In this document: in pieces, positions 30,024 through 41,077 of the stretch | Layout of the letters: the number at the start of each line of letters is the position of its first letter | Numbering within the stretch: the stretch's first letter is position 1 | Assembly: GCA_029856145.1 (NCBI GenBank) | Contig: JAHQWK010000003.1 | Span: 1-64,000 of the forward strand | Origin: Promethearchaeia archaeon | GTDB lineage: Archaea; Asgardarchaeota; Lokiarchaeia; Sigyniarchaeales; SOKP01 | Length of the DNA stretch: 64,000 nucleotides | Direction: 5' to 3' | Notes under the pieces: model-generated | The model's database searches: none | What the model was told of the DNA's origin: nothing | Seen by the model: the letters and a program-made list of their open reading frames with translations, nothing else | Program-made: the position numbers and the translations under genes

Positions 30024-30608
30024 TTATTTACTTTCTTTGATTCGATCATAAGCCCATTGGGCTTTGTCCTTAAGACCTATTTTCTCATATGCTTTACCTA
30101 ATAATAGAAATCCGTCTGGATAATCAAATCTTATTTTAACTAATTTAAATAAAAAGTTTATAGCTAAATCATATCGCCCTTTTAGAAAATTGGCTTTACC
30201 TAATAAAAAAAGAGCATTCAAATTGTTATCATCAATTACAGTTTCACTGTATGAATCTAAAAGTTTATCAATTGCTTCATTATATTTTTCCTCTTCTATT
30301 AGGGTTTCAATAGTTTCAATGAATTTTAGGAATACTATTTTACTAGCAATTTCTTCTACTTTTTTCATTGATTCTTTGTGCAATTCCTTATCTAAGGCAT
30401 CCTGTTTTTCTTTTTCTTTTTTTTCCTTATAATCTTTAAATTGGTCAATTAAACTTTGAGGATATGGTTCACTACATAATGGACAATTTTGTGAATGCAT
30501 TAACCATTCAGCTAGACAGGTTTTGTGAACGAGATGTAAATTTTTACAACTTTTAAAAGAATCTGTGTTTTCATCTATATTCAAATGGCAAATTATACAA
30601 GAGGGCAT
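30024..30608 (-). CDS. RING-H2 finger plus TPR protein (putative E3 ligase)
   Basis: CIIC...C-x3-H-x2-H-x2-C-x3-W...CPLC, coiled coil, two TPR-like repeats. Confidence 0.85.
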   Translation of the reverse strand: MPSCIICHLNIDENTDSFKSCKNLHLVHKTCLAEWLMHSQNCPLCSEPYPQSLIDQFKDYKEKKEKEKQDALDKELHKESMKKVEEIASKIVFLKFIETIETLIEEEKYNEAIDKLLDSYSETVIDDNNLNALFLLGKANFLKGRYDLAINFLFKLVKIRFDYPDGFLLLGKAYEKIGLKDKAQWAYDRIKESK

Positions 30609-30797: not shown

Positions 30798-32384
30798 ATG
30801 TCAATAAATAGAAAAGGTCTTTTCAATGAATTGTTCAGCCAATTCTTAGATGTTAATAAAGATGTAGAAGCAGTTATAGTAAGTGATAAGCAAGGTTTAG
30901 TTATTGCCGGTGAAAAAAGAAGCGACGTAGATATGGAAATTGTTTCTGTGTTAACTTCTATAATTAATCCAATCATTGAAAGGATTCGCGATGAATTTAT
31001 GTTCAAAAAATTTGGGACTGCTAGCTTTGACACAGAATTCTATAGACTATTATTTATTTCCTTGGATGAAAAAAGAACTCTAAGTGTCGTTTTAAATAAT
31101 TTAGCATCTGTAGATAAAGCATCTCCATATGCTTATCTACTTGCCGAAAAATCTGTCCAAATCCTTAATGCAATGGAGGGCGATAATATTCAGTTAACAA
31201 TCCCTAACTTCGAATATGAAACAGATGAAACTACTTATTCTGAAAGAGTAAAAAACCAAATTTATCAAATGCGATTAGATCAAGGTGGACTATATCGTTT
31301 CAAATTTGTCATTATTGGAAATCATGAAGTAGGAAAAACTAGTCTTGTCAGACGATTTGTAGAAAATAAATTTTCGCACGATTATCGTGCAACTATAGGA
31401 TTGAATATACTATCTCATTCCATTGAATTTTTTGGAAATAATGTTGTTTACTCGCTCTGGGACGTAGGGGCTCAGCAATATTTCAAGAGATTTCGCCAAA
31501 CTTACTATTTGGGCACACAAGCAGCGTTTATAGTTTTTGATCTCACTAATAGGAAATCTTTAGAAAGCATTAAGGAATGGTATAAAGAATTAGAGGACTT
31601 TATAGGCGGAAGAGGGATTCCAATTATTATTATAGGAAATAAAAAGGACTTAAAAGACCAAAGAGCTATAGATTATGAAGACGGTGTGAAAGTAGTGAAT
31701 GAATTATCTGATAAACCAAATATCAAAATATCTTATATTGAAACTAGTGCTTTAACAGGGGAAAATGTTGAAGATGCGTTTACATTAATTGCATATCATT
31801 ATATTTCAAAAAGTAAAGAAGAAGAAGAGGAAAGAGTTAAGCAAGATTTGGTAGAGGAACTCAATTCTATCCTGAAAGAAAGAAAAGTGATAGGAGAAAT
31901 TTTAGACTCATTATTAACATTGACAATAATATCTGAAAATGAATTCTGGAGCCCTGGTTTACAGATTCTCTCAGAAATCAATGATTTAAATGAATGTGAA
32001 AAACTCAAAGACGATAAAGAAGAAAAATTATATACATTCTCAAATGGAGTAATCTTAAAGAATTATCTTTACCATAATTTTGAACTGTGTGATTCTGATG
32101 GAGTTTTCTGCATTTTTGATGCCCGTGATAAAGATCATATAGATCCAAATTGGAAAGACGTTGTCGTTAAAATCATAAATGACATTAAAAAGAATAAAGT
32201 TGTTTTAATTGGGATTCGGGTTTCAGATAAAAGCGATTGGTCAGCTATTATGGAAGAATTTAATGTTAACGAATTATTAGAACAGAAAATGGTATCTTTA
32301 CTATTCTTCAAACTAGGTCTCGAATATCGATTAGAAATATACGATCAACTAAAAGTTATGTTAAATACAATAAGGTATCTTTAA
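30798..32384 (+). CDS. Roadblock-Rab-like small GTPase fusion with C-terminal GTPase-like domain
   Basis: VEAVIVSDKQGLVIA roadblock; GNHEVGKTS, TIG, WDVGAQ, GNKKD, ETSA. Confidence 0.9.
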   Translation: MSINRKGLFNELFSQFLDVNKDVEAVIVSDKQGLVIAGEKRSDVDMEIVSVLTSIINPIIERIRDEFMFKKFGTASFDTEFYRLLFISLDEKRTLSVVLNNLASVDKASPYAYLLAEKSVQILNAMEGDNIQLTIPNFEYETDETTYSERVKNQIYQMRLDQGGLYRFKFVIIGNHEVGKTSLVRRFVENKFSHDYRATIGLNILSHSIEFFGNNVVYSLWDVGAQQYFKRFRQTYYLGTQAAFIVFDLTNRKSLESIKEWYKELEDFIGGRGIPIIIIGNKKDLKDQRAIDYEDGVKVVNELSDKPNIKISYIETSALTGENVEDAFTLIAYHYISKSKEEEEERVKQDLVEELNSILKERKVIGEILDSLLTLTIISENEFWSPGLQILSEINDLNECEKLKDDKEEKLYTFSNGVILKNYLYHNFELCDSDGVFCIFDARDKDHIDPNWKDVVVKIINDIKKNKVVLIGIRVSDKSDWSAIMEEFNVNELLEQKMVSLLFFKLGLEYRLEIYDQLKVMLNTIRYL

Positions 32385-32502: not shown

Positions 32503-34080
32503 TTGCGAGTAGAGAAACTTTTGCCATTACAAAAAAATAAGCTCTTTAAAGAATTATTTAATAAGTTCTTAGAATCTAACACTGAAGTAGAAGCTATTAT
32601 CATATCAGATGTAGAAGGTTTAATAATTGCGGGAGAAAAAAGGAAGGATATTGATATGGAATTAGTTTCTGTTTTAACTTCAATTATCAATCCTATCTTA
32701 AGTCGTATGCGTAGTGAATTTGAATTTCAAAAATTCGGAAATGCAAGTTTTGATACGGAGGATCATCGCCTATTATTTATCTCTGTTGATGAGGAAAGAA
32801 TTTTAAGCTTAGTTTTAGAAAGCATTGCTTCAATTGAAAGAATGTCACCATATGGACTTTTTCTAGCAGAGAAGACAGCACAAATCCTCACAGCTGACGA
32901 AGAAGATTTAATTCAGGTTGTAATTCCCAATTTTGAATATGAAGCGGGTAATGTTGAACGATTAAAAAATCAACTATACGAAATGCAATTAGGATTAGGT
33001 GGTGAATATCGTTTTAAATTTGTTATTTTAGGTGATCATGAAGTTGGAAAAACCTCAATCATCCGAAGATTTGTTGAAAAAAGATACACAACAGATTATA
33101 GAGCAACTATAGGTCTCAATGTTTTATCTCATGAGTTCGAATTTTTTGGAAATAAAATTGGTGTAACTCTTTACGACATAGGAGCCCAAAAATTCTTTCG
33201 TCGTTTTCGAAAAATCTATTATTTGGGAGCCCAAGCAGCCTTCATCGTATTTGATCTTACGAATCGCGAATCTTTCGAAAACATTAAAAGTTGGTATGAG
33301 GAACTGAAGCTCTTTACTTCTGGAGAAGATATTCCCATTGTAATAGTTGGAAATAAAACAGATTTAACTGAAGAGAGAAAAGTATTTTATCAAGAAGGTG
33401 CAAAATTAGCGAATAATCTATCCCAAAGCGAAAAAATAAAGATTTCATACATTGAAACAAGTGCATTAAATGGTAGCAATGTAGAGGATGCTTTTAACTT
33501 AATTTCGTATCATTATGTAATGAAAAGCAAAGAAATTGAAGAAGAAAGACGTGGTGATATTTTACTTGATATTATTAACTCGATCTTGAAAAAGAAAATT
33601 GTCTTAACTTTATCTTTAATCTCTGAAAACTTACAATGGAGTCCTGGATTACAAATCATAACGAATATTGCAAAATTAGGAGGTAAATCTCTTATAAGAG
33701 ATTATGATGATGAGGAAGTTTATCAGTTTACGAATGGTTTGATTATAAAGCAGCATCAATATTCTGCTATTGATGATATTTCCAGTTCTGATGGAATATT
33801 TTGTATTTTCGATACTCGAACAAAAGGAACAGTAGACCAAAACTGGAAAGAACTCATAATAAAAATCATAGAAAACATAAAAGAGAACGGGGTAATTTTA
33901 ATTGGAATCAGAGCTTCAGAGAGCAGTAATTGGTCTGAGGTAATCGAACAATTAAATGTTGATGAATACCTTGAAAAAAAAGTAGTTGATCTCTTATTCT
34001 TTAGAATTGGCACTGATTTCAGGCTGGATATCTTCGATCAATTGAAAGTAATGCTTTCTGCTATAGATAATAAATATTAA
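32503..34080 (+). CDS. Roadblock-Rab-like small GTPase fusion, tandem paralog
   Basis: Same architecture: GDHEVGKTS, YDIGAQ, GNKTD, ETSA. Confidence 0.9.
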   Translation: MRVEKLLPLQKNKLFKELFNKFLESNTEVEAIIISDVEGLIIAGEKRKDIDMELVSVLTSIINPILSRMRSEFEFQKFGNASFDTEDHRLLFISVDEERILSLVLESIASIERMSPYGLFLAEKTAQILTADEEDLIQVVIPNFEYEAGNVERLKNQLYEMQLGLGGEYRFKFVILGDHEVGKTSIIRRFVEKRYTTDYRATIGLNVLSHEFEFFGNKIGVTLYDIGAQKFFRRFRKIYYLGAQAAFIVFDLTNRESFENIKSWYEELKLFTSGEDIPIVIVGNKTDLTEERKVFYQEGAKLANNLSQSEKIKISYIETSALNGSNVEDAFNLISYHYVMKSKEIEEERRGDILLDIINSILKKKIVLTLSLISENLQWSPGLQIITNIAKLGGKSLIRDYDDEEVYQFTNGLIIKQHQYSAIDDISSSDGIFCIFDTRTKGTVDQNWKELIIKIIENIKENGVILIGIRASESSNWSEVIEQLNVDEYLEKKVVDLLFFRIGTDFRLDIFDQLKVMLSAIDNKY

Positions 34081-34344: not shown

Positions 34345-34436
34345 TTTATATATTTGAAAGAAGTAATATACCATAATAAAGTTCATATTGAAAAATTTGG
34401 ACTTTGAGAAATTATATTAAAAATTAAAAGTGGAGG
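34345..34436 (+). promoter_or_regulatory. Candidate TATA box and Shine-Dalgarno for the histone gene
   Basis: TTTATATA at 34345-34352; GGAGG at 34432-34436, 9 nt before ATG 34446. Confidence 0.55.
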
Positions 34437-34445
34437 AATAATAAA

Positions 34446-34687
34446 ATGGCAAAGAAGGTATGTAAAAGCATCTCGCTTAGCACGTCAATTTTGCCTGGTC
34501 TCCTGTCCGAAAGTTGATGAAAGATAACGGCGCTGAGATGGTCGCCCGAGATGCTGTTGATGCCTTAATTGACTACTTAGAAAAGTTAGCCAAAGGTATG
34601 ACAAACAAAGCACTTGAGATGACTAGACATGCTGGTCGAAAGAAACTCACGCTTGACGACATGGGCTTGGCAATGAAAATAATCTAA
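34446..34687 (+). CDS. Archaeal histone (HMf-fold), split: join(34446..34457,34481..34687), 72 aa
   Basis: MAKK + HVNFAWSPVRKLMKDNGAEMVARDAVDALIDYLEKLAKGMTNKALEMTRHAGRKKLTLDDMGLAMKII*; P-x-R-x-x-K, GA-x-x-V and HAGRK histone-fold signatures. Confidence 0.9.
34458..34480 (+). other. Putative 23-nt intron GTATGTAAAAGCATCTCGCTTAG
   Basis: AAG|GTATGT donor and TTAG| acceptor; excision restores the frame from the SD-led ATG; stops TAA and TAG lie in the exon-2 frame. Confidence 0.65.
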
Positions 34688-35950: not shown

Positions 35951-37090
35951 TTAAGGAGGTAATAATTTTATTTTTTCTGCTCTTCTAAACTTATTTAGAA
36001 ATTTTTGAATAATCATCATAAATCCCCCTGTAAACATAAATTTCTTCATATATTTTAATAATTCTTCATTACTTTGTAAATAGTATATACCTTTTCCTAC
36101 ATTATTATTGGTTTGTTTTACGATTTTTCGCATCTTATGAGAATAAATATCAATAGCCGATTCCCTTGGTTTTCCTGTTTTTTCCACTTCAAGTATTGCT
36201 TTTGCAGCTAATCTTCCACTTAAAGCAGCAGCATCCATTCCTAACCCTCTATACATATCAACTAATCCTGCTGCATCACCCACAAATAATATGCATCTCT
36301 CTCCAAGATGGACCCTATTTTCTCCCATATCCATGTTGCTTGAAAAACCTTCCTTTTTAACAACTTCTCCCTTGAGATTGTATTCCTTTTTAACAACCTC
36401 AAAAAATTTCTGTCATATCTTGGAAATATTTTTATCATATCCAGTACCAATAACCCAAAGATCATCCTTTTTATAGATCCAAGCAAACATCATATTGTTA
36501 TATTCTAAATTCCAATATTGATACAAACGATTAGGTTCTAAATCACCCTCACCATCAAAATTATAATTAATAGTAGCCCCAGTCGACTTTTTTTCGAAAT
36601 CTTCGGATCTCATTTTCATTCTTACTGTTGGCATTAATCCAGTTGCATCAATTAAATACTTAACTTCAATCTGTTCTAGATTTTTATCTTTATCTGAAAT
36701 TGTAACAATGATATTTTTCGTTTTTATTTCCCATTCAATAAGTGTACATTCATCTCGAAATTCTGCTCCATTTTTAATTGCTACTTGGTTTAGCCAATCA
36801 TCAAAAACATCGCGGGTAAAATTAAGCATTTTAAATGGAGCTTTTGTTATTTTTCCATCTGGTCTAACGATTGAAACTTTAGATAATTCATTAGTGCAGA
36901 GCTTTTCAGAAGGAATTTTTTCTCCAATAGTTTTTTCCAAATAGGGGAATTGAATTCCTGAACAAGATTTCATTCTTGGAGTCTTATACCTTTCAACAAA
37001 TAAAGTTTTTAAACCTCCCTTCGCAGCAAATTTTGCTGCAACAGATCCAGCAATTCCACCGCCTGCGATAAAAACATCAAATTCTTTCAA
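35951..37090 (-). pseudogene. Geranylgeranyl reductase-like flavoprotein with an in-frame TGA at 36413-36415 (nonsense or recoded)
   Basis: ORFs 36413-37090 and 35951-36334 share a frame: ...NISKI*QKFFEVVKKE...; GGGIAG, DATG, VGDAAG motifs; 379 codons in total. Confidence 0.8.
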
Positions 37091-37364: not shown

Positions 37365-37928
37365 ATGTCAGAAAAAAAAGAAGATAAGCCTTTACCATTT
37401 TTAGAAGGAGAGAATGTAGCTCTTTGTCCTGCTAATATAGATCATATTAACCTATATGCTGCTTGGATGAATAATCCTAAAACCAGAAAATATGCAAGGT
37501 ATGAAATGCCCCAGACCATTGAAGAAATTAAAAAGCAGTTCGAACCAAAAAAAGAACCTGTAAAAAATGATATATTTTTTGAAATTTGGCATAATAAAGA
37601 CAAAAAACCAATAGGTTTTGCAGGTTTAATTAGGATTCAGTGGTTTACTCGTAATGCGCATATTTATTTTGTAATTGATCCAGAATATTGGGGACGAAAT
37701 ATTGGAACTGAAGCGGGAAGGTTAGTTGTAGATTATGCCTATAAAGAATTAAATTTGCATAAAATAACTGCTCGAATGGCCGCGCCGAATAAGTCTTCTC
37801 ATCGAGTAGCTGAGAAAATAGGTTTTAAACATGAGATAACACTTAAAAAGGAAGTTTACATTGATGGAGAGCATGTGGATGTTATTGAATATGCTATCTT
37901 TAAGGATGATTGGATGAAATCTCATTAA
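37365..37928 (+). CDS. RimJ/RimL-type GNAT N-acetyltransferase (array copy 1)
   Basis: YWGRNIGTEA acetyl-CoA motif; ELNLHK; N-x-x-S-x-RVAEKIGF. Confidence 0.9.
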   Translation: MSEKKEDKPLPFLEGENVALCPANIDHINLYAAWMNNPKTRKYARYEMPQTIEEIKKQFEPKKEPVKNDIFFEIWHNKDKKPIGFAGLIRIQWFTRNAHIYFVIDPEYWGRNIGTEAGRLVVDYAYKELNLHKITARMAAPNKSSHRVAEKIGFKHEITLKKEVYIDGEHVDVIEYAIFKDDWMKSH

Positions 37929-37971
37929 AAGTATAAATTATATTTACGTTGCAACTGGAGAGGTTTAAATC

Positions 37972-38562
37972 TTGGAAAAGAAAGAAAAATCTAATGAAAT
38001 TGAAGAAGTGGAAGCATTTCCTTTCATCAATGGAGAAAATATTGATCTTTGCCCTCGAAATTCAAAATTAGCTAAGGTTTATGTTTGTTGGAAAAATCAT
38101 CCTCGAGTAAGAAAATATGCCCGAAATGTTGTACCTAGGACTATTGAAGATCAAAGTAAGAGGTTTGAAAGAAGAACTGAAGGATTAGTGGATCATATAT
38201 CCTTAGATGTTTGGCATAAGAAAGATAATAAACCTATTGGTCAAATAGGTTTAAGTCGTATAGACTGGATTAACAGTTGGGCAAATACCTTTCTTCAAAT
38301 TGGAGAACCCGATTATTGGAATAAAGATATTGGTACTGAAGCCACAGAACTGCTTGTTGAGTATGCATTTAATGAATTAAATCTAAATAAATTACATGGG
38401 GGAGTTGCTGTTGATAATATTGGTTCATGGAGTGTAGCTGGAAAAATTGGATTTAAACTGGAAGGAGTAAAAAAGCATGAGATGTATGTTGATGGGAAGT
38501 ATGTTGATACTAAGATATTTCAATTATTGAAAGAAGATTGGGTGAAAGGAAAACAAGACTAA
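37972..38562 (+). CDS. RimJ/RimL-type GNAT (copy 2)
   Basis: YWNKDIGTEA, NIGSWSVAGKIGF. Confidence 0.9.
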   Translation: MEKKEKSNEIEEVEAFPFINGENIDLCPRNSKLAKVYVCWKNHPRVRKYARNVVPRTIEDQSKRFERRTEGLVDHISLDVWHKKDNKPIGQIGLSRIDWINSWANTFLQIGEPDYWNKDIGTEATELLVEYAFNELNLNKLHGGVAVDNIGSWSVAGKIGFKLEGVKKHEMYVDGKYVDTKIFQLLKEDWVKGKQD

Positions 38563-38633
38563 AATTATGATTTTCTAGATTTAATAAGCTTAATTTTAAT
38601 CAAATAAAAGAAAAAAGTGAATTGTAAATAAAA

Positions 38634-39203
38634 ATGAATGATAAAAAGAAGGATTTTGCAACACCCTTTTTAGAGGGAATATTAATAAATTTGTGTCCTT
38701 TAAACATAGAGCACGCGAATTTGTATACTAAGTGGAGTAATGATCCTGATATACGTAGATACTCCAGAAACATAATTCCATGGAGTATAGATGAGGTAAA
38801 AAAATGGTCTGAACCAAAGGAAGAAAGAGTTAAAAAAGAAATCATCTTTGAGATATGGCACCGTAAAGATAATAAGCCTATTGGTAGGGCGGGATTTAGT
38901 GATATTAATTGGTTTAACCGTAATGCCAATTTATTTGCTGAAATTGGAGAATCAGATTATTGGGGGCAAGATATTGGACCGGAAGCTAGTAGACTATTAA
39001 TAGACTATGGATTTGAAGAGCTTAATTTTTATAAGATTTATAGTAGAATATTTTCACCAAATAAACAATCATTGCGAGCTGCTGAAAAAATTGGTTTTAA
39101 ACATGAAGGAACATTAAAAGAACACATTTATATTGATGGGGAATTTGTTGATGAATCAAGATTTGCAATTTTTAAGAAAAATTGGTTAAACTCCAAAAAA
39201 TAA
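38634..39203 (+). CDS. RimJ/RimL-type GNAT (copy 3)
   Basis: YWGQDIGPEA, NKQSLRAAEKIGF. Confidence 0.9.
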   Translation: MNDKKKDFATPFLEGILINLCPLNIEHANLYTKWSNDPDIRRYSRNIIPWSIDEVKKWSEPKEERVKKEIIFEIWHRKDNKPIGRAGFSDINWFNRNANLFAEIGESDYWGQDIGPEASRLLIDYGFEELNFYKIYSRIFSPNKQSLRAAEKIGFKHEGTLKEHIYIDGEFVDESRFAIFKKNWLNSKK

Positions 39204-39254
39204 ATTAATATTTAGTAAATAAAATATCAGTAAAATATCGATTTAGTAAGAATT

Positions 39255-39833
39255 ATGGTAGATAAAAAAGAAAAAAGAAATGAAAAAGTTCCAGTCTTTA
39301 TAGACGGAAAAATAATAAGTCTTGTTCCTCAAAATTCAGAGCATATTAATTTATATGTTAAATGGCTGAATAACGAAAAAGTACGAAAATATGCCCGATG
39401 GGAAATGCCTCGCACAGTTGAAGATGTTAAAAGATGGTTTGAACCTCGAGAAGGAAGAGTACCTTGGTTTGTTGGATTTGAAGTTTGGCATAAGAAAGAT
39501 AGTAAACCAATAGGTCAAGTAGGGTTAGCTTGGATAGATTGGGTTAATGGATGGGCTAATGCTTTTGCTTATATCGGGGAACCTGAATATTGGAGTCAAG
39601 GGATTACTACTGAAGCCACAGAAATGCTTGTTGAATATGCATTCAACGAATTAAATCTTAATAAATTACAGGGTGGGGCAGCTGTTGAAAATATAGGGTC
39701 ATGGAGTGTTGCTGAAAAAATTGGCTTTAAATTTGAAGGAATACGAAAACATGAGATGTATGTAGGTGGAAAATATCTTGATGTTAAGACATATCGCATA
39801 TCAAAGGAAGATTGGGTAAAATCCAAAAAATAA
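39255..39833 (+). CDS. RimJ/RimL-type GNAT (copy 4)
   Basis: YWSQGITTEA, NIGSWSVAEKIGF. Confidence 0.9.
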   Translation: MVDKKEKRNEKVPVFIDGKIISLVPQNSEHINLYVKWLNNEKVRKYARWEMPRTVEDVKRWFEPREGRVPWFVGFEVWHKKDSKPIGQVGLAWIDWVNGWANAFAYIGEPEYWSQGITTEATEMLVEYAFNELNLNKLQGGAAVENIGSWSVAEKIGFKFEGIRKHEMYVGGKYLDVKTYRISKEDWVKSKK

Positions 39834-39883
39834 ATTAAATGAAATTATAGAACACCCAAAATTGTCAAGTTTTAATAAATCAT

Positions 39884-40462
39884 ATGAAAGAAAAAGAAGA
39901 GAAAGAAGGAAAAGAAGTTCCAGTTTTTATTGAAGGAGAGACTATATATTTCATACCCCATAATTCTGAATATATCAATTTATATGTAAAATGGTTTAAT
40001 GATCCAAAAGTTCGTAAATATGCTCGAGAGATTGTACCTATTAGAGTTGATGATGCCAAGAAATGGTTTGAAGAAAGCGAGAGGGGAACGCCTAATTATA
40101 TAGGTTTTGTAATATGGCATAAGAAAGATATGAAACCAATTGGCGTAATAGGATTAGGTTTAATAGATTGGGTTAATGGTTGGGCAAATGTTGGTCTTTC
40201 AATCGGGGAGCCCGCCTATTGGAATAAAAATATTGCTACCGAAGCTACAGAATTGCTAATTGAATATGCCTTCAATGAATTAAATCTTAATAAATTACAA
40301 GGATGTGCTGCTGTAGAAAATGTTGGCTCCTGGAGTGTTGCTAAAAAACTTGGCTTCAAATTTGAAGGAATAGGAAAACAAGAGATGTATGTTGATGGAA
40401 AATACTTGGATGAAAAAAGATATTGTTTGCTAAGGGAAGATTGGCTAAATTCAAAAAAATAG
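39884..40462 (+). CDS. RimJ/RimL-type GNAT (copy 5)
   Basis: YWNKNIATEA, NVGSWSVAKKLGF. Confidence 0.9.
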   Translation: MKEKEEKEGKEVPVFIEGETIYFIPHNSEYINLYVKWFNDPKVRKYAREIVPIRVDDAKKWFEESERGTPNYIGFVIWHKKDMKPIGVIGLGLIDWVNGWANVGLSIGEPAYWNKNIATEATELLIEYAFNELNLNKLQGCAAVENVGSWSVAKKLGFKFEGIGKQEMYVDGKYLDEKRYCLLREDWLNSKK

Positions 40463-40510
40463 ATTATTTAAAATAATATTCGAAAAAATATTTAGAAATT
40501 GATAATAAAT

Positions 40511-41077
40511 ATGGAAGAGAAAGAAGAGAAAGAAGTTCCGGTCTTTATTGAAGGAAAAACTATAAGTCTAGTGCCCCAAAATTCAGAGCATATTAATTTA
40601 TATGTAAAATGGCTGAATGACCCAAAAGTGCGTATATATTCTCGAAATGAAACACCAAAACGAGTTGAAGACTTAAAAGATTGGTTTGAACCACATGACA
40701 GGGGAACCCCCGGTTTTATAGGTTTTGAGCTTTGGCATAAAGAAGATAAAAAAGCTATTGGACTTGCTGGTTTAGGATGGATAGATTGGATTAATGGGTG
40801 GACAAATGTAGGTGTTACAATAGGAGAACCAGACTATTGGAATAAGAATATAGCTACTGAAGTAACTGAATTAATTATTGAATATGCTTTCAATGAATTA
40901 AACCTAAATAAATTACATGGCGGGGTTTGTGTTAAAAATATTGGATCATGGAGTGTTGCAGAAAAAATAGGTTTTAAACTAGAAGGAATAAGAGAAAATG
41001 AGTGGTATGTTGATGGAGAATATCTTGGAGTTAAAACTTATTGTTTATTAAAAGAAGATTGGATGGATAGAAGGTAA
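40511..41077 (+). CDS. RimJ/RimL-type GNAT (copy 6)
   Basis: YWNKNIATEV, NIGSWSVAEKIGF; ATG 40511 (MEEKEE) preferred. Confidence 0.9.
   Translation: MEEKEEKEVPVFIEGKTISLVPQNSEHINLYVKWLNDPKVRIYSRNETPKRVEDLKDWFEPHDRGTPGFIGFELWHKEDKKAIGLAGLGWIDWINGWTNVGVTIGEPDYWNKNIATEVTELIIEYAFNELNLNKLHGGVCVKNIGSWSVAEKIGFKLEGIRENEWYVDGEYLGVKTYCLLKEDWMDRR

What the first reader, a model, noticed from the sequence alone, without database searches (positions are those of the whole stretch)
34446..34687. Asgard histone gene interrupted by a 23-nt GT-AG intron with a spliceosomal-type donor (AAG|GTATGT...TTAG|)
Seen in sequence: GGAGG (34432-36) leads to ATG 34446, but that frame gives only a 23-aa peptide (MAKKVCKSISLSTSILPGLLSES*). 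The histone fold HVNFAWSPVRKLMK...HAGRKKLT...MKII* is in another frame, begins right after an in-frame TAG (34478-80), and has no start before TTG 34514/ATG 34517, which would delete helix 1. Removing exactly 34458-34480 (GTATGTAAAAGCATCTCGCTTAG) gives a clean 72-aa histone, MAKKHVNFAWSP.... Established knowledge: GTATGT is the budding-yeast 5' splice-site consensus, (A/C)AG| is the exonic consensus, YAG is the 3' site, and introns of about 15-30 nt occur in ciliates, microsporidia and nucleomorphs. To my knowledge, spliceosomal-type introns are not described in prokaryotes. Inference: this may be an mRNA intron with spliceosome-like signals in the archaeal lineage closest to eukaryotes. No canonical CTRAY branch point is visible.
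Basis: partly seen in the sequence, partly recalled or inferred. Interest (0 to 1): 0.96.

Follow-up and report, generated by a model that had tools for sequence, protein, structure and literature searches.

The report
tRNA-type intron in Asgard histone gene
A histone gene of an Asgard archaeon is interrupted by a 29-base intron with the shape cut by the archaeal tRNA-splicing enzyme (not the 23-base spliceosome-type intron first proposed), and a second such intron in relatives explains a published 'truncated' Lokiarchaeum histone.

Summary
The gene is really interrupted, identically in 10 independent assemblies, so this is no sequencing error. But the GT..AG reading fails. Orthologues read MAKKV-FAWSP (0 of 120 homologues read MAKKHxx), so the insert is 29 nt (34460-34488); the 'GT' is the start of the Val5 codon. 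27 different inserts (29-41 nt, all three frames) sit at this site in relatives. Cutting at the canonical BHB positions restores the orthologue exactly. The genome encodes a two-subunit EndA and RtcB, and seven more genes carry BHB-like inserts. A second BHB site near the 3' end of the same histone explains the 'C-terminally truncated' histone HLkE of Lokiarchaeum GC14_75. Verdict: a cbf5-like endonuclease-spliced mRNA intron, not found in the literature searched for Asgard archaea or histones. The scan noted this class before on other DNA.

The parts
34345..34352 (+). TATA-like box, about 95 nt upstream of the ATG (inferred promoter)
   Evidence: Seen; a similar AT box lies at the same distance in most orthologues printed. 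Function not tested.
34432..34436 (+). Shine-Dalgarno GGAGG
   Evidence: present in all same-genus orthologues
34446..34459 (+). Exon 1: codons M-A-K-K plus the first two bases (GT) of Val5
   Evidence: Orthologue comparison
34448..34453 (+). 5' arm of the outer exon-exon helix (pairs with 34490-34495, 6 bp)
   Evidence: Pair probabilities 0.89-1.0; 100% paired in 23 alleles, A-U to G-C change in two
34454..34457 (+). Exon strand of the 4-bp central helix, GAAG
   Evidence: GAAG.GT in 23 of 23 intron alleles against 1 of 30 intronless alleles
34458..34460 (+). 5' bulge GT|A; predicted EndA cut between 34459 and 34460
   Evidence: BHB rule (cut inside each 3-nt bulge); restores the orthologue
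34460..34488 (+). 29-nt bulge-helix-bulge intron
34466..34478 (+). Inner intron hairpin, 4-bp stem capped by a 5-nt loop ending in UC
   Evidence: Pair probabilities 0.8-1.0; G-C-N3-UC-G-C nearly invariant across alleles
34483..34486 (+). Intron strand of the central helix, CGTC (3 of 4 pairs here, one A.G mismatch; CTTT or CTTC, 4 of 4, in most relatives)
34487..34489 (+). 3' bulge AA|T; predicted EndA cut between 34488 and 34489
   Evidence: Intron ends in AA in 22 of 23 alleles
34489..34687 (+). Exon 2: third base of Val5, then FAWSP... to the stop; spliced product is a 70-aa archaeal histone
   Evidence: 0 amino-acid changes but 15-31 synonymous codon differences against most intronless orthologues over 57 codons
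34727..34736 (+). T10 run, terminator-like
   Evidence: Seen; function inferred

Best explanation
The histone pre-mRNA folds at codon 5 into a bulge-helix-bulge: outer exon helix (6 bp), central helix GAAG with CGTC, two 3-nt bulges and an intron hairpin. The two-subunit tRNA splicing endonuclease EndA cuts after the second base of each bulge, releasing 29 nt (34460-34488), and RtcB joins the exons, giving AAG GTT TTT GCC and the conserved 70-aa histone MAKKVFAWSP.... Shown: the insert, its boundaries relative to orthologues, the conserved fold with covariation, purifying selection on the protein, and the enzymes' genes. Inferred: that EndA and RtcB actually process this RNA in the cell.
For: Orthologues define a 29-nt insert. 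27 distinct inserts at the same site, 29-41 nt, all frames. Central helix 87 of 92 pairs, shuffles 42.7 +/- 4.5, maximum 60 in 10,000; slid registers 38-61. Whole structure 95.9% of cells paired, 6 pairs with changes on both sides, against 26-53% for slid partners; includes a G-C to A-U change in the central helix (L106) and A-U to G-C in the exon helix (L047, L058). Synonymous exon positions are fixed only in intron-bearing alleles (23/23 against 1/30). Chance non-histone pattern hits (L041, L053) show no helix. Intron-bearing genes average 19 synonymous to 3.5 non-synonymous codon differences, like intronless ones (19 to 2.7). G000 has no second copy of this histone. EndA alpha with Tyr/His/Lys triad and the K44/R46 loop of A. 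pernix EndA (PMC3241643), a second EndA paralogue lacking the His, and RtcB are present. Seven more G000 genes have 28-31-nt BHB-like inserts in conserved motifs. A second site in the same histone has a 4/4 central helix in 8 of 8 alleles.
Against: In G000 the central helix has an A.G mismatch and is not in the minimum-energy fold (BHB form -8.7 against -11.5 kcal/mol; pair probabilities near 0.01); RNAalifold picks a different register for the central pairs. The alleles are kin, so the counts overstate independence.
Confidence: 0.9

Rival explanations
1. A 23-nt spliceosome-type GT..AG intron (34458-34480).
For: The letters AAG|GTATGT...TTAG are there and removal opens the frame. A paralogous histone reads MAKKKHSFAWSP, so the product does not look absurd.
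Against: Product matches 0 of 120 homologues; donor hexamer in 1 of 23 and acceptor AG in 2 of 23 alleles; several alleles have no frame-restoring GT..AG at all; 25% chance rate; no Prp8 domains, U2 or reverse transcriptase found in a 97% complete genome; 5 of 7 other inserts in the genome have no GT..AG register nearby.
Confidence: 0.01
2. The insert is not spliced: the gene is a pseudogene, or makes a 56-57-aa histone from an internal start, or is read by frameshifting or ribosome hopping.
For: Gene callers annotate the 56-aa form. No RNA evidence. Four other histone paralogues exist in the genome, and G005 has an intronless second copy.
Against: Exon 1, the SD and the protein are fully conserved under strong purifying selection. 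No SD before the internal starts, and the short form lacks the start of helix 1. Inserts fall in all three frames, some with stops, so one frameshift rule cannot serve. Exon-intron covariation has no reason under this reading.
Confidence: 0.06
3. The BHB is cut by EndA mainly to destroy or tune the message (cleavage without efficient ligation), or this particular allele with the A.G mismatch is spliced only poorly.
For: Relaxed central helix in G000; EndA cleavage of an mRNA leader is known in Haloferax (PMC7714728).
Against: The same CGTC strand is kept in three other alleles with intact genes; precise restoration of the frame in all alleles only makes sense with ligation.
Confidence: 0.03

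Closest known systems
BHB intron in cbf5 pre-mRNA of Desulfurococcales and Sulfolobales (Watanabe 2002; Yokobori 2009, PMC2738675)
   Same: Short intron (16-44 nt there, 29-41 nt here) in a coding sequence, BHB at the boundaries, variable length and sequence, present or absent among relatives, two-subunit EndA in the host.
   Different: Asgard lineage, histone gene, two intron sites in a 70-codon gene, one of at least eight candidate genes in the same genome, shared NNNUC-capped hairpin; splicing was shown experimentally for cbf5 and is only inferred here.
Non-canonical tRNA introns of Asgard archaea (bioRxiv 10.64898/2026.10.13.758758)
   Same: Same motif and enzyme; the paper reports heavy, repeatedly gained BHB introns and two EndA paralogues in 44 of 60 genomes.
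   Different: That study covers tRNA genes only; 'mRNA', 'histone' and 'cbf5' do not occur in it.
Ultra-short spliceosomal introns (ciliates, microsporidia, nucleomorphs; from memory)
   Same: Length range; a GT..AG can be read in this one allele.
   Different: GT is exonic, AG not conserved, no branch point, no spliceosome genes found.
Lokiarchaeum GC14_75 histone HLkE, KKK41979.1 (Henneman 2018, PMC6136690)
   Same: Orthologue of this histone.
   Different: Published as C-terminally truncated with a D59S change; contigs encoding that exact protein carry a 30-nt BHB insert with an in-frame stop, whose removal restores helix 3.

Membership tests
Archaeal BHB (EndA/RtcB) intron | 4-bp central helix between exon 1 and the intron 3' end | tested here: met
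   87 of 92 pairs in 23 alleles; 3 of 4 in this allele (relaxed form)
Archaeal BHB (EndA/RtcB) intron | Two 3-nt bulges on opposite strands, flanked by outer exon and intron helices | tested here: met
   Exon helix 100% paired, first intron pair 100% paired with 6 A-U/U-A swaps
Archaeal BHB (EndA/RtcB) intron | Cuts after the second base of each bulge restore the uninterrupted gene | tested here: met
   Gives MAKKVFAWSP in all histone alleles
Archaeal BHB (EndA/RtcB) intron | Host encodes EndA able to cut relaxed motifs, and RtcB | tested here: met
   (by sequence only)
Archaeal BHB (EndA/RtcB) intron | Spliced RNA in vivo or EndA cleavage in vitro | not testable with these tools
Spliceosomal (U2-type) intron | Conserved GT donor consensus and YAG acceptor | tested here: not met
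   GTATGT 1 of 23, AG 2 of 23
Spliceosomal (U2-type) intron | Removal restores the conserved protein | tested here: not met
   Two extra residues, 0 of 120 homologues
Spliceosomal (U2-type) intron | Branch point | tested here: not met
   None in the sequence or alignment
Spliceosomal (U2-type) intron | Prp8 and snRNAs in the genome | tested here: inconclusive
   No match, but no control genome holds these families
Group I / group II self-splicing intron | Ribozyme core of hundreds of bases; maturase | tested here: not met
   29 nt; no Rfam match near a gathering score; no RVT_1 in the genome, control rang
Archaeal histone (HMf-like) | Histone fold PF00808 | tested here: met
   E 3.3e-11

The most novel reading that the evidence does not exclude
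In this Asgard lineage EndA-dependent mRNA splicing is a regulated layer of gene expression: a shared class of mini-introns with an NNNUC-capped hairpin gates histone, translation and lipid genes, and intron retention yields histone variants (a 10-residue N-terminal insert in stop-free 30-nt alleles, a helix-3-less form such as HLkE), an archaeal parallel of IRE1/RtcB-type regulated splicing.
Probability: 0.15. Interest if true: 0.92.

Novelty: new variant of a known kind. Interest (0 to 1): 0.72.

Why it matters
Reviews up to 2020 name cbf5 as the only archaeal coding sequence with a BHB intron (PMC7714728), and my searches of the held library found no report for Asgard mRNAs or for any histone. 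[quoted passage not shown] It also corrects annotation: 56-aa 'histone-like' calls, histones with a false N-terminal insert, and the published truncated HLkE are probably unspliced readings. The 50-nt substrate makes an in vitro test simple. It does not support spliceosomal introns in archaea.

Tried and rejected
Exact look-ups of both candidate spliced proteins found neither; look-ups of short contigs and of another allele's spliced form led only to intronless relatives with 27-32 differences, not spliced copies. Sequencing error rejected. A tree on 171 columns without the splice-site codons was mostly unresolved; intron alleles are scattered among intronless ones, so one gain with many losses cannot be told from repeated gain or recombination. 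A de novo BHB plus ORF scan of the genome had poor specificity (44 relaxed hits against 34 in a control; 5 against 4 strict); only hits inside known conserved motifs were kept. Rfam gave only chance matches. The sigma-70 promoter scan does not apply to archaea. A loose family-wide pattern mostly hit upstream A-runs. No insert at the site in the 14 histone loci read from other families of the order. Slips.

Full report
Observation. The interruption is letter-for-letter the same in ten independent ENA, JGI and Logan assemblies, so it is not a sequencing error. Relatives that carry the same insert site are titled Promethearchaeota archaeon and the orthologues are named Lokiarchaeota or Promethearchaeota histones, which places the genome in Lokiarchaeia.

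Boundaries. Same-genus orthologues are 91-98% identical from FAWSP onward, and 28 of the 29 best ones besides the window read MAKKV or MAKKI directly before it. Against them the insert is 29 nt, and the GT taken for a donor is the first two bases of the Val5 codon. The 23-nt removal gives MAKKHVNFAWSP, seen in none of 120 homologues. Three 29-nt registers give the right protein; the one at 34460-34488 is the BHB register and predicts codon 5 as GTT. A close relative without the insert (G036) has exactly that junction.

Other alleles. Pattern searches found inserts at the same site in 4 of 54 genomes of the genus, one more genus, 18 metagenome contigs and further assemblies: 27 distinct alleles, 29-41 nt, in all three frames. 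Their middles differ freely. The proposed donor GTATGT is in 1 of 23 and the proposed acceptor AG in 2 of 23. Shuffling the insert gives a frame-restoring GT..AG in 25% of trials.

What is conserved is a bulge-helix-bulge. Exon 1 ends in GAAG plus GT; the four bases six from the intron end pair with GAAG in 87 of 92 cells, against 42.7 +/- 4.5 in shuffles (maximum 60 of 10,000 trials) and 38-61 in shifted registers. On an unfitted MAFFT alignment the named structure is 95.9% paired with six pairs changed on both sides, against 26-53% when slid. One allele changes the exon base and its intron partner together (G-C to A-U in the central helix); two change both arms of the exon helix. Synonymous exon positions that are free in intronless genes (GAAG.GT in 1 of 30) are fixed in intron-bearing genes (23 of 23). 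These alleles are kin, so the numbers are not probabilities. In G000 itself the central helix has one A.G mismatch and is not in the lowest-energy fold, and RNAalifold chose another register for the central pairs; three other alleles share the mismatch.

The gene is alive. Over 57 codons G000 differs from most intronless orthologues by 15-31 synonymous codons and no amino acid, and intron-bearing alleles show the same ratio as intronless ones. G000 has no other copy of this histone type; its four paralogues are 43-56% identical. Neither internal start has an SD.

Machinery. G000 encodes two EndA paralogues. One has the catalytic Tyr, His and Lys and its best solved relative is A. pernix EndA, with the loop holding K44 and R46 conserved; that loop confers cleavage of non-canonical introns (PMC3241643). 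The other lacks the His, as expected of a structural subunit. RtcB is present, and many tRNA genes carry introns. No Prp8 domain, U2 or reverse transcriptase was found; for Prp8 and U2 the prokaryotic controls cannot ring, so this is weak.

Second site. Eight distinct alleles carry a 30-32-nt insert inside HAGRK-K-K-LT with a 4 of 4 central helix in all eight, and two more genomes have it; seven alleles carry both introns. Contigs encoding exactly KKK41979.1, histone HLkE of Ca. Lokiarchaeum GC14_75, have this insert with an in-frame stop. Henneman 2018 (PMC6136690) describes HLkE as truncated, lacking helix 3, with D59S; removing the insert restores a full 70-aa histone with the Asp.

Genome context. 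Following my own scan and earlier notes, I checked seven more G000 genes with 28-31-nt inserts in conserved motifs (rnhB, uL11, mvk, uppS, aIF2-gamma, csp, nifU): central helices 3 or 4 of 4, and no GT..AG register near five of them. I did not compare these with orthologues. All eight inserts cap their hairpin with a 5-nt loop ending in UC (circular for rnhB and uL11, which were found by that loop). What that loop does is unexplained; 3 of 12 intron-bearing tRNA calls have one against 1.2 expected, which shows nothing.

Mechanism and standing. Most likely EndA cuts after the second base of each bulge and RtcB ligates, as for crenarchaeal cbf5 (PMC2738675). The exon helix covers the G of the start codon before and after splicing, so translation initiation may compete with folding; this is speculation. 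Literature searches found cbf5 as the only coding-sequence case and a 2026 preprint on Asgard tRNA introns that does not mention mRNA. Earlier notes of this scan describe the same class in other Asgard genes and two-intron histones in other genomes; I formed the BHB reading before seeing them and treat them as leads only.

Verdict. Observation partly confirmed, spliceosomal reading rejected, BHB mRNA intron about 0.9. New variant of a known kind; interest 0.72.

Noticed in passing
L109:801-1030 (also L039, L045, L049, L054, L056-L059, L110-L113): Second BHB intron site in the same histone, near the 3' end; explains the 'truncated' HLkE (KKK41979.1) of Ca. Lokiarchaeum GC14_75.
   Followed up: yes
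L039, L049, L054, L058, L136; proteins P0066, P0092, P0174: Stop-free 30-nt introns are translated by gene callers into histones with a 10-residue N-terminal insert; some apparent Asgard histone extensions may be unspliced introns.
   Followed up: partly
G000 C18:61155+, C28:14768-, C3:203065+, C3:195615-, C5:34200+, C6:11627-, C10:33334+: BHB-like 28-31-nt inserts in rnhB, uL11, mevalonate kinase, uppS, aIF2-gamma, a cold-shock gene and a NifU-like gene; all cap their hairpin with a loop ending in UC. The uL11 case did not appear among the earlier notes shown to me.
   Followed up: partly
L003 (G036) against L065 (G070): Upstream 150 nt differ at one base, yet G036 lacks the intron precisely and differs at several synonymous sites just after the junction; looks like loss by recombination or conversion.
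   Followed up: partly
L023 and L072 (G005): One genome holds two copies encoding the same histone protein, one with and one without the intron.
   Followed up: no
window 30798-32384 and 32503-34080: Two tandem genes with an N-terminal roadblock-like domain fused to a Ras-type small GTPase, directly upstream of the histone (Pfam checked for the second).
   Followed up: partly
window 37365-41077: Tandem array of at least six RimJ/RimL-type acetyltransferase genes about 3 kb downstream of the histone; GNAT genes also flank the histone in L109 and L134.
   Followed up: no
window 35951-37090 (minus strand): An FAD-dependent oxidoreductase (geranylgeranyl reductase-like by eye) appears split into 225-aa and 127-aa frames, the same in other assemblies.
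   Followed up: no
window 30024-30608 (minus strand): ORF with an N-terminal RING-like Cys/His pattern followed by TPR-like repeats (by eye).
   Followed up: no
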